Below are positions 8,205 through 63,500 of a DNA stretch of 64,000 nt, one piece after another. Origin of the DNA: Eledone cirrhosa (taxonomy: Eukaryota); contig OZ024740.1 of NCBI GenBank assembly GCA_964016885.1, positions 368,714,001 through 368,778,000 on the forward strand. Direction: 5' to 3'. Each line of letters starts with the position of its first letter. Position 1 is the first letter of the stretch. The translations under genes and the position numbers were made by a program. Below the pieces are notes generated by a model. It searched no databases. It saw nothing but the letters and a program-made list of their open reading frames with translations, and was not told where the DNA came from.

Positions 8205-8450
8205 AAACTAAAACAGAATACTAACCAATACTTATTACTAATTTATACTTATTCCTAATTAAACTATTTTCAGTGGGAAACATTTGTTAGCATTTTCTTT
8301 TCCTTTTACTAATATATATATATATAAAACTAAAACAGAATACTAACCAATACATATTACTAATTTATAGTTATTTCTAATTAAACTATTTTCACTGGGA
8401 AAAAATTGTCAGCATTTTCTTTTCCTTTTACTAATATATATATATATATA
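8205..8450. repeat. About 122-bp tandem duplication
   Basis: aaactaaaacagaatactaaccaatac...ttttcttttccttttactaatatata occurs at about 8205 and about 8327. Confidence 0.85.
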
Positions 8451-8755
8451 TTGTTATACTTTGGGAGGGTCATGTTGCCAATAAGAAACACACGCACCAG
8501 TTGCTTTCACTTCAATTTATTATATATTTATAAATTTATAAATTTACAAATTTACAAACTTATAAATTTCTGGTTGGTTGGTTGGTTCCACAACCAGATA
8601 GTTGTTTATATATAGTCATAGTCCTTTCGTCACACACTCTGTGACCTCTTCAGTGTGTTTCTTATTGGCAACATGACCCTCCCAAAGTATAACAATATCG
8701 GTTTCAACACACGATTTCAGATAAAGAATCTTGCTAAACAAATTCAGAAACGAAA
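8450..8755 (-). mobile_element. Short HHR-bearing pLTR-like foldback insert (same family as 43822-44526)
   Basis: Near identical to 43881-44090. HHR core on the minus strand at 8614-8655 (CTGAAGA GGTCAC..GTGAC GAAA GGAC TA TGACT). The terminus is inverted at 8654-8755 and the insert is flanked by (TA)n. Confidence 0.8.
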
Positions 8756-8815
8756 TATATATATATATATATATATATATATATATATTTATTATTTATT
8801 AAAATAACAGATTAA

Positions 8816-8866
8816 AGTTTAAGCAAAGAATCGCTGCTTTCACCCTTAACGGGATCTTCTGAAACT
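8816..8866 (-). ncRNA. Hammerhead ribozyme-like motif (inverted copy of 11312-11362)
   Basis: Reverse-complement copy of the motif at 11312-11362. Confidence 0.55.
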
Positions 8867-58291: not shown

Positions 58292-58559
58292 GTATATATA
58301 TATATATATATATATATATATATATATATATATATATATATATATATGGATGTAACTAAGTATTTGCGCATGGCATGAATGTGTGTGTGTATATATATAA
58401 AAACTTGTATGTGTGTCGAGGAATATATCCGTATGGGGTGGGGGGGGGGGCATATATTTAATTCGCAATATACATATGTAAGTACGCATGTACGAATAAA
58501 AGATCGTGCGGTCAATCCGGTGTTTGACATGTGTTTATGCGATTGTACTAATGTATGTA

Positions 58560-58890
58560 TTTGGTCTGAAGGATCGGATTGTGCTAAGATCAGCCACAGT
58601 GCTACATTTTCCTTCTATTCTGTCATCAATTGGAATCGCATGTTGCTTCACTTGGCTGCTTATATCGTGTTGATGGCCATGATAGTACCGTTCCTATACT
58701 TGTTCTTGATTTTGGCTATATGCTTGAGGAAGAACGAGGATTTTGTTTTTATATGTTCTTTTAATCTGATGTGCAGGTTTCGAATAGTGCTGCGATGTAA
58801 AATTGACTGCCATTGCTACATTATAAACTTTACACTATGTACTTGGCCAGGAAAAGAGTTAGTGTTGTGGATGTGGTAATTGCTCAAAGA
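58560..58890 (-). pseudogene. PLE-type GIY-YIG endonuclease relic
   Basis: Reverse complement reads QFYI(G)STIRNLHIRLKEHIKTKSS..KHI across a frameshift. Confidence 0.6.
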
Positions 58891-60944
58891 ACCCGTTTTA
58901 TCTCCGTTCAGAAATTGTTCTTGAGATAGTCATCTCTGCTGGGATTGTCCCGAGTTGATCAGTCAAATGCCATGGCCTTCTCAAATATTTATAGCTTATA
59001 TGTATTGTTTCGGGATCTTATATACATATTTTTCATAACCAAGCAGATGCAGTTTGAAATGTTCCAAACCGTTACTACTAATAATGAATATTGTATATTT
59101 TCGACGTATAATTAAGTTCCTTTACGTTCAATATAGGTGTTTTCACTGCCAGTTGAGAATATTTTCACATGTGAAAACATCAACGTTTCCCGCTGATAAA
59201 ATACATATAAATTATAGAACAATTGAAATAATATCTCACTAATAGCTGAACAAAAATAAAATCCCAATTTTAATATACAACTGCTACCATTTATGTGGCT
59301 AACTTAATTCCAAGCAACATTTGATAATACATTAATCAACGCAATTTTCTACCAAAGGTAACTGCAGCTCGCTAGTCTCATGGATAAACGACTAGCACTA
59401 TGAATGTATAATTAGATTTCTATAGAAAAATCTACGCGATATATGATTATACAGTCGAAATAAACTTTGATAAATGCTATGACTTTGTTTTTATCGATGT
59501 ATGAAATATTAATAGTATCATTTTAATCAACTTGCTTGTTCAATATACCGAGGTGCCAAATGATTATAAAGCTAGCATTACATTTAAACTATGTATATCC
59601 ATTATAATTTGAATTCTGTTTGGTACAAATATTTCACTTTTTCGCTAGCTATTAAAATGATTTAAATATATTGCAAAATAATGGTTATATCATTCAAAAT
59701 GGGACTAAAAGAATGCTCTACCAATATTTGTATCGGCTACTACTTAAGTACTGATGATTCTCGTGTGATTAGATTAGTCTTCTTCTTTGATAAAACAGCA
59801 GATTGTGTACTCTATCCTGTTTAATAGATCATCATATGTTGCGTAAAATGATAATAATTCAATATTATTGTGATTTCATTTGGAAACAATACGTTTATTA
59901 TTAATCAATGAATGCGAAAATGATGAAAAGGTCGTTACGATGCCCTTTCTAGCAGTGGTATATTTCTTGCTAGCAGGCGGGTTCTACAGGAAAGGTACCC
60001 TGAAACGATAAATGTAACAACATTTGAATTATTCTTAGGGAAGCGATCTCTCTCGCATCCAGTCATAAAGCCCTTTCATTTCAATGATATATGGAGACAT
60101 TATTGCTTCAGCATGGTGCAAATCATTTAATATGAACAAGGAGAATAGTATACATTGTAAATATGTTACATCTATGTTGATACTAACGCATGCTATTTCG
60201 TGTTTGCTCGTTACTACGAGACAGTCTAATGTAAATGATCCAATCTAAATTCATGAATATTTGGATAAACTCTCTAGGAAAGTAAATGAGATTTCGCACT
60301 ATTACGAGGCGGCCAATTAATTCAGAAAATGGCGTTGATTTAAGCTGAGTAATTACGTAACATTGGAAATAAATTAGGTTGCTTTTCTTTCCCAGCATAT
60401 CAAATAAGAATAAAGATAGCTGAATAAAAGAATTTTGTTCTGTGTCAAATATCGACCATCTAACAGGATTTAGTAGAGACATTGTACAGTGATACAAGGA
60501 TTTATACATCTATATAATGTTTCTATATGTTTGCTTATTTTTTTATAACTGATTATATCAAGACTTATTTCAAAACTATACGTGAATGATGACATAATCA
60601 CGTAGATTCGTATACTTTATTTGTTCTACGAATATAAGTTTTCTTATTAAAGATTTGTAACATGCAAAATTAAATTAGGCATAATCAAGGAAGGAAACGT
60701 TATATTGCCAGTTGACTTACAACTAACAGCATACAAAACTTCAAATTTCACTGAACCCTACTTAAACACGAACGAAATATAATAAAATTTAGCTAGATAT
60801 ACTGGAATGAATGTTCTCAAAAACACATGAAATGTATATGGAATAATGTATTACTAATGCAAGTTTGCACACAAACAAACACGTAAACACTCACACACAG
60901 ACACACACACATATACAAATACACATGCATATATATAACGTGAA

Positions 60945-63500
60945 CTTACTAGATCCCAAGTGGATGTCATCCTTGCGGCCAGGAAAACCATAATTGTATT
61001 TGATGATCAATTATAGACCCGCAAAAATACACCTAACAACTTCGATATCACTATGGGATCTAGCGACTCAGCATAGGTCACAAACTTAGTTGGTTTATTT
61101 CTCTTAAACGAAATCCATAAGAATTTACCTACCTTAACGGCGGTTTCTATCGACACGACGCACTTAATATAGAAAGAAGTAGAAAATAATAACATAGCGT
61201 ATTAAAAAACTTCAACTTAGGTATCAACGCAGATAAAAACACCAAAAACGTTAACTTCTTTGGTGTCACCCTTTACTCAGACTTTGAAACATATACATCA
61301 TATCATACACCAAATGAAAAACTTTTTTATGTTAATACCAATTCTAACCACCACAAATTTGTATGAGCTCATTCATTAAGGGGTATCTAATAGAATATCT
61401 AGTCTTTCTTATAACGAGATTATATTTAACCGTAACTCCCAATACTATCATGAAGCCTTAGCTCGCTCGGGCCATAGAGATAAAATAAAATTTCACATAA
61501 TATGGCCATAAATAGAATTATATATTATAATTCTATTCATGGCCATGCTCATTGTATTGAAGATCCTGCCTCCAACACCGAGGGTATCAACAAAGTTAAC
61601 CCACACCACAACAATAGTCTCTGGAAACACCGCATAGAGAAAAAGTATGTTAAAAACGAAAATATAAATAATACTGTACCTAACACCACACGAAATAATA
61701 TAGTTAATCAGAATAATATAAATATAAAGAAAAATCATGAGAAAAAGATAAGAAGAAGTAATACATTTTTTAATCCTCCTTTCAACTTAAATGTCTCCAA
61801 CATACCTAAAGCTTTCTTCTCAATTATAGATAAAAACTTCCCCATTTACCATAAATCCCATAACCTATTTCACAAAAATACTATTAACATCTCTTACTCT
61901 ACCACACCTAACATTGCGGATCATATAGCTAGCAGTAACAAGAAGAAGATTAGTAAATACTTCAAATTAAACCAAGTTAATAATGTCGAACATAGAAATA
62001 ACCTTAATAATAACTCAGAACAGTAGTATATTGCAAGTAATAGTAATAATACTAATATTAATGACATTAATACTTACCATAATCTTAATACTATAAGTAT
62101 AAACAGTAATAACCGTTCAACATCATGCCCCCTTAACCAATATACTATTAAGAATAACAATTGTATGTTTAGACCTAATAGAACTTGCCTATTAAGTAAT
62201 AATTGGCTTATTAAAGACATCATCTACTCCTGTACTGCTAATCAAATTTCGAAAGTGTATATAGGTTCATCATCGAATAGTTTTAAGACCAGATATAACT
62301 CGCACCTTCGTTCGTTTAGAAACCCTAGACTTAGTAATGCCACCTCAATATCAACAACATACACTCATTAAAAACAAGAAGTGTACCATATCCCCTATAG
62401 CGAAGGCCCCTTCTTATAACCCACCTAACAAACTCTGTAACCTTTGCTTCCTTGAGTCTCGCACTACTGTTCATTCAAATCACAACCTACTAAATAGAAA
62501 AGCATAAGTTTTCTCCACGAGTCCACATTGCCACATATAATTACCTCCCTTTGTTATTAACTCCACTTATGAATATCGTTCCCTTTATTTTTTTTTTCAT
62601 TTCATAACGTTAAAACAATTTAACGACATTTTTTACCGTTAGACTTTGTCTAATGACTCTTAATAGAACTCGCACATAATGGAAAGGAAACTACTATTTC
62701 TTAATAGAAAATTTAAGGATAGGAATGCATTGTATAATATATTTCCTATCGCTAGTAATACAATGGAATTTATCTTTACTACACATATTTTTAAACTCTA
62801 CGCATCTCAAACACATTACAACTAAAATTAAAAACATTCCTTGTACACTACATTGGCTTTACATCCAACATATACATTTATACACGAATTCTAATATATA
62901 AATTCTTCAGTGACAATTACCTATCTCATTTACTTACGTTTTATGCATTATACATTACACAACATTTATTTATTTTATCATTACACATTTCTTTACCATA
63001 ATGCATGCCATTTTTACATTTTCAACACTTTTAATATGATATAACATTCTGCATGAAATATGCTTGGTTTATTCATTTTATAACTCTTACCTCATGCATG
63101 CCTTTATTAACTTTTGCATTATATAACCTTCATTTTACCTTATTTTCAATGCTATGATATCTTTTATCTATCTCCTCTGACATCTTTTTTGGTTGGTATC
63201 TTTTGCACATGTATTACCTTAAAGAATATCTTTATATATAATATGCTCAATATTTCGCTTTTCACCATTGCTCCTTATACTGTGATATCTGTAAAATAAC
63301 ATCTTTTTGTAACTCCTGCTTTTCAAAATGATGTCACTGACACTGCCAAGAGTTATGTATCTATCAATGTTGTGAAGACTAGGATTATAATTACTTGTTT
63401 AAACATTGTATGTGCTCCGATGAAGCCAAACATTCGTCTGGAAGAAACAATTGTCAGCAATTGTATTAAACTAAAATGTGATTGTTTTATATTCTGTATA
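60945..63500 (+). mobile_element. Decayed 5'-truncated Penelope-like element with a long 3' UTR and a terminal HHR
   Basis: FDITMGSSDSA..LVGLF, DDAL, VNF..VT, NSNH, FFNPPFN..KNFP..ISYSTTPN, IIYSC..KVYIGSSSNSFKTRYNSH..SF, CNLC. Confidence 0.88.
63413..63459 (+). ncRNA. Hammerhead-like motif, CCGATGA core, at a PLE 3' end
   Basis: TGCT CCGATGA AG CCAAAC ATTC GTCTGG AA GAAA CAATTG TC AGCA. Confidence 0.62.

What the first reader, a model, noticed from the sequence alone, without database searches (positions are those of the whole stretch)
8450..63500. A dense (TA)n-hosted set of hammerhead-bearing retroelements: about 9-10 HHR families in 64 kb
Seen: HHR folds at 8614/44048/44315, 8816/11312, 25619/26089, 44862/45328/45794, 48913, 50009/50375, 53168/54596, 55229, 56834 and 63413. 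Most have different stems and flanks (54596 and 63413 are related), and almost all sit in or beside (TA)n. Known: PLE pseudo-LTRs carry minimal type-I HHRs with palindromic stem III, and non-coding HHR repeats (retrozymes) are thought to be mobilised in trans. Inference: the window holds both coding PLE helpers and several non-coding HHR passengers that share a target preference, possibly an undescribed cephalopod retrozyme/PLE system.
Basis: partly seen in the sequence, partly recalled or inferred. Interest (0 to 1): 0.85.

Follow-up and report, generated by a model that had tools for sequence, protein, structure and literature searches.

The report
Penelope ends plus three retrozyme families
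The many self-cutting-RNA (hammerhead) motifs in this window are real: seven families are the ends of protein-coding Penelope-like jumping genes and three are protein-free tandem repeats that land in TA repeats with the same footprint and are likely copied by those genes' enzyme, a known kind of system that here fills the whole genome with an estimated few hundred thousand motifs.

Summary
Observation confirmed: 12 of the 18 listed sites are complete type-I hammerheads (shuffles give 0.2-0.3); the other six are damaged copies of real families. The interpretation needs correcting. Seven of ten families (A, B, E, G, H, I, J) are pseudo-LTRs of coding Penelope-like elements (PLEs), five with Hydra-clade motifs, a clade already reported in Octopus with (TA)n targeting. 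Only three (C 470, D 466, F 591 bp) are non-coding tandem retrozymes: 39,091 C/D-type and 7,502 F exact motif matches genome-wide; none of 60 position-ordered loci is joined to an ORF. All nine families tested have two fixed 3' ends; 285 of 380 ends abut (TA)n (background 4.5%); 89 of 94 head-to-head pairs use one end of each kind (non-coding 24 of 26). F carries at both ends a small hairpin shared with Hydra-clade ends. The window is not special: 40 evenly spread 10-kb stretches give 8.3 motifs per 64 kb, about 390,000 genome-wide (95% range 255,000-530,000). Expression, cleavage, circles and the host taxon are untested. This scan reported the same pattern before on other DNA of this and other genomes. 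Known kind, unusual scale.

The parts
8451..8755 (.). Family A stub, head-to-head inversion between (TA)n tracts; damaged hammerhead core at 8653 (-)
8793..11455 (+). Family B: 5'-truncated Hydra-type PLE (ORF pieces 9383-10239, CxCx5C linker, GIY-YIG) with 3' pseudo-LTR hammerhead at 11317 (+, core CAGAAGA) and an inverted arm 8793-9321 with hammerhead at 8861 (-)
25268..26588 (-). Family C retrozyme: two 470-bp head-to-tail units (hammerheads at 26125 complete, 25655 damaged) plus an inverted arm 26229-26588 ending at (TA)n
43824..44523 (.). Family A head-to-head stub (hammerheads 44087 - and 44320 +); pseudo-LTR of a coding Neptune-type PLE found at G000:C2:206.998-207.003 Mb (L124, L133)
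44614..46128 (-). Family D retrozyme: 2.9 units of 466 bp (hammerheads 44899, 45365, 45831) plus an inverted arm 46013-46128; both ends in (TA)n
46274..47511 (+). Family I PLE, endonuclease end and first part of the 3' UTR; continues at 54849 after about 7.3 kb of nested insertions in its TA/TG tract
   Evidence: 84% to L247 2371-3639
47512..48983 (+). Family E: 5'-truncated Hydra-type PLE (ORF pieces 47518-48736) with pseudo-LTR hammerhead at 48918
49773..50536 (.). Family F retrozyme (591-bp unit elsewhere): minus arm 50375 to 49773 (damaged hammerhead at 50090) and plus arm 50375-50536 (hammerhead at 50379, U3-A8 core, 57-nt stem II, palindromic stem III)
50563..50755 (.).
   Evidence: sequence; same element seen in L039, L148, L149, L159, L169
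50850..52692 (-). 41-bp family B end (50850-50890) next to a broken Hydra-type PLE ORF (50911-52692) whose own hammerhead was not identified
53131..54846 (.). Family G head-to-head stub (hammerheads 53210 - and 54600 +, core CCGAAGA); 3' UTR and pseudo-LTR of a 4,201-bp Hydra-type PLE with an open 832-codon frame (L130)
54849..55432 (+). Family I 3' UTR and pseudo-LTR: damaged hammerhead at 55234, partial second copy 55308-55432 with the tail
56700..56982 (.). Family J head-to-head stub between (TA)n tracts (damaged minimal hammerhead at 56834); pseudo-LTR of a coding PLE (L115, L131, L132)
60942..63496 (+). Family H: decayed PLE related to G (ORF pieces 60942-62501) with pseudo-LTR and damaged hammerhead at 63417, ending at (TA)n

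Best explanation
The window is an ordinary sample of a genome saturated with Penelope-like elements (PLEs): seven hammerhead families are pseudo-LTRs of coding PLEs, and three (C, D, F) are non-coding tandem retrozymes that are likely copied in trans by a PLE enzyme. Shown: the family anatomy, the two fixed 3' ends of each family, the (TA)n junctions, the one-end-of-each rule in head-to-head pairs, and nesting. Inferred: the PLE endonuclease would cut both strands of a (TA)n tract; the reverse transcriptase would start at two internal sites of a tandem or circular RNA, one from each cut end; this would give two back-to-back arms, one with and one without the 'tail', mostly 5'-truncated, so that only the hammerhead-bearing end is left. 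Each insertion leaves (TA)n on both sides, which then takes further insertions. F likely uses a Hydra-clade enzyme, because it carries at both ends the small CTC-helix-(U)YGAG hairpin of Hydra-type ends; the helper of C/D is unidentified. Self-cleavage into monomers and circularisation are predicted by analogy with coral, mussel and axolotl retrozymes and are untested.
For: Coding links: A lies 120 nt behind an RT/GIY-YIG ORF with a Cx4CxxC linker; G repeats every 4,201 bp around an 832-codon frame; the tail of I runs into an ORF in L155/L247 and L069; J lies between two ORFs in L115/L131; B, E and H lie behind ORFs in the window, and 3 of 9 further B loci with the anchor and 8 of 11 further E loci have their own ORF upstream within 1.5 kb. 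Hydra motifs (PMC8557442 section 11): RW[RK], DKT and CxCx5C in G and I, CxCx5C in B, E and the ORF at 50963. Non-coding: longest stop-free frames 88, 102 and 52 codons; in 30 C/D and 30 F loci taken in order of position, every same-strand PLE hit is separated by (TA)n. Ends: two peaks in each of 9 families; (TA)n follows 102 of 126 non-coding and 183 of 254 coding ends, background 4.5%; inside arrays the same positions run on into the next unit, so the TA is target and not template. Pairs: one end of each kind in 24 of 26 non-coding and 65 of 68 coding pairs, 3 more skipped. Hairpin with >=2 inner pairs: F 27 of 29 and 22 of 36; first ends of B 23 of 39, E 9 of 14, I 30 of 36, H 5 of 11, G 3 of 14; A 0 of 43, J 1 of 65, C 0 of 63, D 0 of 207; background 1.2%. 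Structure kept by covariation in 38 C/D variants: 7 of 14 pairs change on both sides, covariation 0.257 against 0.093 shuffled and at most 0.115 slid. In vitro precedent for two internal start sites and extension of both strands: PMC11167929.
Against: No RNA evidence of any kind was obtained. No coding PLE sharing long sequence with C, D or F turned up among 206 loci or the 60 later ones, whereas the Xenopus preprint found such homology for 21 of 57 families; the helper is therefore inferred from footprints alone. C and D lack the hairpin. The hairpin is short, was suggested by earlier AI notes, its definition was loosened, and the copies counted are related, so counts are not independent; it is absent at the second end of I (0 of 5) and has one inner pair at the second end of G. 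Within-array versus between-array divergence does not separate circular from multimeric templates (C 1.4 vs 1.9%, D 1.0 vs 1.9%, F 0.25 vs 2.8% on 2 pairs). In the one PLE tested in vitro, hammerhead cleavage was not needed for insertion (PMC11167929). The window's own C array has one irregular end, and the two I copies at 55234 and 55308 are in tandem, not head-to-head.
Confidence: 0.8

Rival explanations
1. Every family, C, D and F included, is only the pseudo-LTR of a coding PLE; the tandem arrays arose afterwards by local duplication (unequal crossing-over) and never moved on their own.
For: Four families that looked non-coding in the window proved to be pseudo-LTR stubs. Only 60 position-ordered and about 50 best-match loci were inspected out of tens of thousands. 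The Xenopus preprint names local amplification as a route.
Against: Dispersed arrays on many chromosomes begin and end at the same two unit positions with (TA)n outside and the next unit inside; head-to-head arms follow the one-end-of-each rule in 24 of 26 pairs; 0 of 60 loci are joined to an ORF, while the same kind of sampling found the ORF link for I in 1 of 25 loci and for E in 8 of 11.
Confidence: 0.1
2. C, D and F are mobilised by another reverse transcriptase, such as the (TAA)n-ending LINEs in the window, or by a DNA rolling-circle (Helitron-like) route.
For: Young LINE copies with long RT frames lie in the window. C/D have no identified PLE signal.
Against: Those LINE copies end in (TTA)n/(TAA)n tracts, not (TA)n; the tail and inverted-arm footprint is described as peculiar to PLEs (PMC8557442 section 15; PMC11167929) and is the same in coding and non-coding families here.
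Confidence: 0.07
3. The motifs are chance folds in AT-rich, repeat-rich DNA.
For: The descriptor was relaxed after a first pass; Rfam scores are below the gathering threshold.
Against: 12 against 0.16-0.31 in shuffles; 0 in reversed sequence; reversed-pattern controls 0 against 39,091 and 7,502; compensatory changes.
Confidence: 0.01

Closest known systems
Hydra-clade Penelope-like elements, including Hydra-1_Obim of Octopus bimaculoides (Craig et al. 2021, PMC8557442; passages, sections 11 and 15 and supplement hits read)
   Same: C-terminal GIY-YIG; RW[RK], DKT and CxCx5C motifs; hammerhead in the 3' end; (TA)n insertion; inverted 5'-truncated copy and one-sided tail. Fits B, E, G, I and, through its likeness to G, H.
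   Different: The paper found a small number of extra families; here at least five sit in one window, with hundreds to thousands of copies each (lower bounds). Tails are about 45-170 nt, not 30-40. Cores with U4 changed to A (B) or C (G, H, J) are the family norm. G is 4.2 kb, against generally <3 kb.
Animal non-LTR retrozymes (Cervera and de la Pena 2020, PMC7229834, passages and parts 2-4 of 6 read; Li, Clavereau and Pollet 2026, 10.64898/2026.07.22.740005, parts 1-3 of 5 read, supplements closed)
   Same: Head-to-tail non-coding units with one type-I hammerhead each, GC 36-42%, strongly self-paired predicted circles (z -9.4, -9.0, -6.8), coexisting with PLEs. Fits C, D, F.
   Different: Units of 466-591 bp exceed the 150-450 bp of the 2020 paper (within the 51-972 bp of the preprint). 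Neither text, in the parts read, describes (TA)n targeting, two fixed ends or paired inverted arms for retrozymes, and neither samples cephalopods. No sequence-related coding PLE was found here.
Minimal PLE hammerheads (Cervera and de la Pena 2014, PMC4209133, parts 1-2 of 4 read)
   Same: Many unrelated consensus families per genome, mostly single motifs from truncated PLEs, opposite-strand pairs 100-700 bp apart, extra base before stem II, palindromic stem III, U3-A8 core variant (Schistosoma).
   Different: Counts there are thousands per genome (about 9,000 in Xenopus tropicalis); my descriptor, which is not theirs, extrapolates to about 390,000 here. U3-A8 occurs here in a non-coding tandem family with a 57-nt stem II.
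Neptune/Poseidon-type PLEs and the anole PAc element (Frangieh et al. 2024, PMC11167929; passages and part 2 of section 3 read)
   Same: Tail equals the stretch between two internal RT start sites and can reach into the ORF start, as in A and J; AT-rich target; both strands extended.
   Different: PAc starts in an AC-rich stem-loop and cuts at ATT; the one-end-per-arm pairing and trans use of a non-coding RNA were not in the passages read.

Membership tests
Type-I hammerhead ribozyme | Core CUGANGA...GAAA...UH with three helices closed in stem I | tested here: met
   12 complete motifs; 7 with the strict core, the others with U4A, U4C or U3-A8
Type-I hammerhead ribozyme | Helices kept by compensatory change | tested here: met
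   C/D lineage only; the sequences were selected by the core pattern and are related
Type-I hammerhead ribozyme | Self-cleavage | not testable with these tools
   needs an in vitro assay
PLE pseudo-LTR (A, B, E, G, H, I, J) | Lies at the 3' end of, or between, RT + GIY-YIG ORFs | tested here: met
   for H only the window copy and the likeness to G
PLE pseudo-LTR (A, B, E, G, H, I, J) | One-sided tail and inverted 5'-truncated arm | tested here: met
   (H not included)
Hydra-clade PLE (B, E, G, H, I) | RWK, DKT and CxCx5C motifs | tested here: met
   all three in G and I (RWR form); CxCx5C only in the truncated B and E copies; degenerate in H
Hydra-clade PLE (B, E, G, H, I) | Placement in the Hydra clade on an RT tree with reference elements | not tested
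   no reference set was available as tool sequences; assignment is by motif
Hydra-clade PLE (A, J) | DKT and CxCx5C | tested here: not met
   A has DKSG and Cx4CxxC (Neptune-type); J has DKG and no CxCx5C; neither is filed as Hydra
Non-LTR retrozyme (C, D, F) | At least two consecutive tandem units, each with a complete type-I hammerhead | tested here: met
   D in the window; C and F in other loci; the window's C and F copies each have one damaged motif
Non-LTR retrozyme (C, D, F) | No coding capacity, GC below 45-50% | tested here: met
Non-LTR retrozyme (C, D, F) | Highly self-paired predicted circle | tested here: met
   40 shuffles each; TA-rich palindromes inside C and D inflate the score
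Non-LTR retrozyme (C, D, F) | Expressed as monomeric linear and circular RNA | not testable with these tools
   no RNA holder was listed
Non-LTR retrozyme (C, D, F) | Sequence homology to a coding PLE pseudo-LTR | tested here: inconclusive
   none among 206 loci or 60 further loci; the sample is small; F shares only a short hairpin
Non-LTR retrozyme (C, D, F) | Target-site duplication | tested here: inconclusive
   cannot be read inside (TA)n

The most novel reading that the evidence does not exclude
This genome holds several hundred thousand hammerheads, more than any count in the papers read (axolotl 126,247), and its retrozymes carry a readable record of their carrier. Family F is a protein-free circle that mimics a Hydra-clade recognition hairpin (CTC-helix-UYGAG) placed 7-15 nt beyond each of two start sites, so that one PLE enzyme primes both cut ends of a TA repeat on the same RNA. 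That would name both the enzyme class and the RNA signal that mobilise an animal retrozyme.
Probability: 0.45. Interest if true: 0.68.

Novelty: new member of a known kind. Interest (0 to 1): 0.42.

Why it matters
Which enzyme moves animal retrozymes has been argued only from co-occurrence and terminal homology. Here coding and non-coding families leave the same insertion footprint in one genome, and one non-coding family shares a candidate signal with one PLE clade. A trans-mobilisation assay is therefore straightforward: an open 832-codon Hydra-type frame (L130) and F, C or D RNA as template. The scale (about 130 motifs per Mb) also means that a sizeable class of repeats in such genomes is unrecognised as ribozyme-bearing; the Octopus vulgaris repeat annotation PMC13282606 never uses the words hammerhead, ribozyme or retrozyme in its main text. 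The individual window is not exceptional.

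Tried and rejected
Strict descriptor: found 3 motifs and missed U.U or A.G at the base of stem II and 2-bp stems III; relaxed with new shuffles. Rfam: almost all of the 150 listed rows are microRNA models matching microsatellites; only C scored as a hammerhead. Candidate counts from DNA searches as copy numbers: rejected, since F gave 25 candidates but 7,502 exact motif matches. L069 as the autonomous partner of F: rejected, F there sits inside the 3' UTR of an I-family PLE. 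The endonuclease ORF at 46285 as D's helper in cis: rejected, it belongs to family I. Family A as a non-coding passenger: rejected; its fixed 5' start is seen in 20 of 36 copies from A-directed loci but 1 of 15 others. Circle versus multimer template by within-array divergence: no verdict. Host taxon by protein search: no verdict. The newt satellite-2 octamer parallel is recalled; the search found no paper for it. Lunse et al. (PMC5785218) is not held, so whether the U4A and U4C cores are in print was not checked. Searches for prior description; in their listings no paper is about cephalopod retrozymes, but most subscription papers, Dfam and Repbase are outside the library, and the supplements of the bioRxiv preprint are closed.

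Full report
Observation. The window lies at G000:C1:368,714,001-368,778,000 of a 3.0-Gb assembly. A relaxed type-I hammerhead descriptor finds 12 complete motifs, against means of 0.16 and 0.31 in 200 dinucleotide shuffles each and 0 in the reversed window; a stricter first version found 3. The other six are damaged copies: the family forms of A, C, F, H and I are complete in other loci, and that of J is a minimal motif with a 3-bp stem I. Ten of the 12 lie within 300 nt of a (TA)6+ tract, against 33% of random positions. In 38 distinct C/D variants 7 of 14 pairs change on both sides and the covariation score is 0.257, against 0.093 shuffled and at most 0.115 when slid.

The window is typical of the genome. 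Forty 10-kb stretches at evenly chosen positions on 15 contigs hold 52 motifs in 27 clusters, i.e. 8.3 per 64 kb; shuffles of the same 400 kb give 0-5. The bootstrap range is 85-178 per Mb, or 255,000-530,000 in the genome, and the chance of 12 or more in 64 kb is 0.16. The six flanking 10-kb stretches hold 8. Published counts, made with other descriptors, are >6,000 (coral), about 5,000 (mussel) and 126,247 (axolotl) (PMC7229834), and about 9,000 minimal motifs in Xenopus tropicalis (PMC4209133).

Seven families are ends of coding PLEs. B, E and H lie directly behind RT/GIY-YIG fragments in the window, and B and E do so in other loci too. G is the 3' UTR and pseudo-LTR of a 4,201-bp tandem unit with an open 832-codon frame; the window copy matches it at 98.7-100%. 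A lies 120 nt behind an RT-endonuclease frame at C2:207.0 Mb. J lies between two ORFs in L115/L131. The tail of I runs into an ORF in 1 of 25 loci picked by a tail pattern and in L069. By the motifs given in PMC8557442 section 11, G and I have RW[RK], DKT and CxCx5C; B, E and the orphan ORF at 50911-52692 have CxCx5C; H is 64-78% identical in DNA to G. A has a Neptune-type Cx4CxxC linker, and J is unassigned. That paper reports (TA)n insertion for almost all Hydra families and lists Hydra-1_Obim from Octopus bimaculoides with a hammerhead.

Three families are non-coding tandem repeats. C (470 bp) and D (466 bp) are colinear at 59%. A pattern for their shared hammerhead matches 39,091 places (control 0), including arrays of about 30 units and related units of about 422-500 bp. 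F has a 591-bp unit and a U3-A8 core (50 of 50 copies, partly by selection of the anchor), and 7,502 exact matches (control 0). The longest stop-free frames are 88, 102 and 52 codons. In the first 30 loci of each pattern, no PLE frame is joined to the unit without a (TA)n tract between. Predicted circles fold at z -9.4, -9.0 and -6.8. These meet the sequence criteria for non-LTR retrozymes; expression and cleavage could not be examined.

Shared footprint. In all nine families examined (H left out), 3' ends fall at two fixed positions about 45-170 nt apart. Of 380 terminating copies 285 abut (TA)n (non-coding 102 of 126, coding 183 of 254; background 4.5%; the figure for A is understated because the reference flank aligned through). 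Where a copy does not end, the same position runs into the next unit or the ORF start, so the TA tract is the target. In head-to-head pairs with both ends in (TA)n, one arm ends at each position in 65 of 68 coding and 24 of 26 non-coding cases; 3 pairs with a long internal TA tract were skipped. This test was prompted by earlier notes of this scan. It fits the in vitro finding that a PLE protein cuts and extends both strands and starts at two internal RNA sites that bound the tail (PMC11167929).

Candidate signal. Earlier notes also mentioned a hairpin beside the ends. In read-through copies a CTC-helix-(U)YGAG hairpin begins 6-15 nt after the first end in B (23 of 39), E (9 of 14), I (30 of 36), H (5 of 11) and G (3 of 14), and after both ends in F (27 of 29; 22 of 36). 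It is absent from A (0 of 43), C (0 of 63) and D (0 of 207), found in 1 of 65 for J, and occurs at 1.2% of random positions. Denominators include copies followed by unrelated flank, the rule was loosened once, and copies are related. It suggests a Hydra-clade helper for F; C/D have no identified helper.

Why the motifs crowd at 43.8-57 kb. Window 46274-47511 and 54849-55306 match consecutive parts of one I-family element (L247; 84%, 71%, 84%). Its 3' UTR TA/TG tract has taken about 7.3 kb of later insertions: E, F, a fold-back stub, a B end, an orphan Hydra-type ORF and G. Each insertion leaves (TA)n on both sides, so tracts act as sinks.

Verdict. Not found in the papers searched: the scale, the PLE footprint on retrozyme arrays and the hairpin. 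The scan has noted all three before on other DNA. The host was not identified. New members of known kinds; interest 0.42.

Noticed in passing
window 2735-5049, 11491-14580, 32076-35865: Three copies (90-98% alike) of a non-LTR retrotransposon with RT and a C-terminal restriction-like endonuclease region, ending in (TTA)n/(TAA)n; a second family at 15148-18432 and 28976-31627. They look like Dong/R4 elements (label recalled; Dong-R4 is listed as recently active in O. vulgaris).
   Followed up: partly
window 20748-21185, 27402-28202, 39315-39637: Fragments with an RPDGxT...WDxT endonuclease-like motif, reminiscent of CRE-clade non-LTR elements (recalled); no Pfam hit.
   Followed up: no
families C and D, about 90 nt upstream of the hammerhead core (e.g. 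window 45000-44980 region, minus strand): An ATGCAAAT octamer is kept in 103 of 123 C/D-type copies despite 59% identity between C and D; absent from F. Possibly an snRNA-type promoter as recalled for newt satellite 2; no paper found.
   Followed up: partly
   Followed up: partly
window 37827-38054, 38513-38785, 55530-55974, 57613-58291: Fold-back or terminally repeated stubs next to (TA)n tracts without a complete hammerhead; probably further PLE-type insertions.
   Followed up: no
family A, L033-L052: A young subfamily starts at one fixed point 65 nt upstream of the core (20 of 36 copies in A-directed loci, 1 of 15 elsewhere), just downstream of a GCGCATGCGC palindrome; may be short pseudo-LTR transcripts copied in trans. 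The same palindrome lies upstream of the E hammerhead (window about 48860).
   Followed up: partly
families I and B in loci not selected for them: 5' breakpoints pile up within 7 nt of the start of the hammerhead core (I 27 of 39, B 6 of 28), often at an inversion, as if stem I complementarity guides the joint.
   Followed up: partly
L208:3650-4580, L212:9335-9955, L095: Another tandem hammerhead family with a unit of about 310 bp and a CGCG stem III, not present in the window.
   Followed up: no
window 5073-5221, 5866-6060, 6430-6623, 21212-21390, 38892-39093, 31779-31840: A dispersed repeat of about 190 bp (85-96% alike), SINE-like; unrelated to the hammerhead families.
   Followed up: no
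L216:3181: A second, unrelated hammerhead with the U3-A8 core in the evenly spread sample.
   Followed up: no
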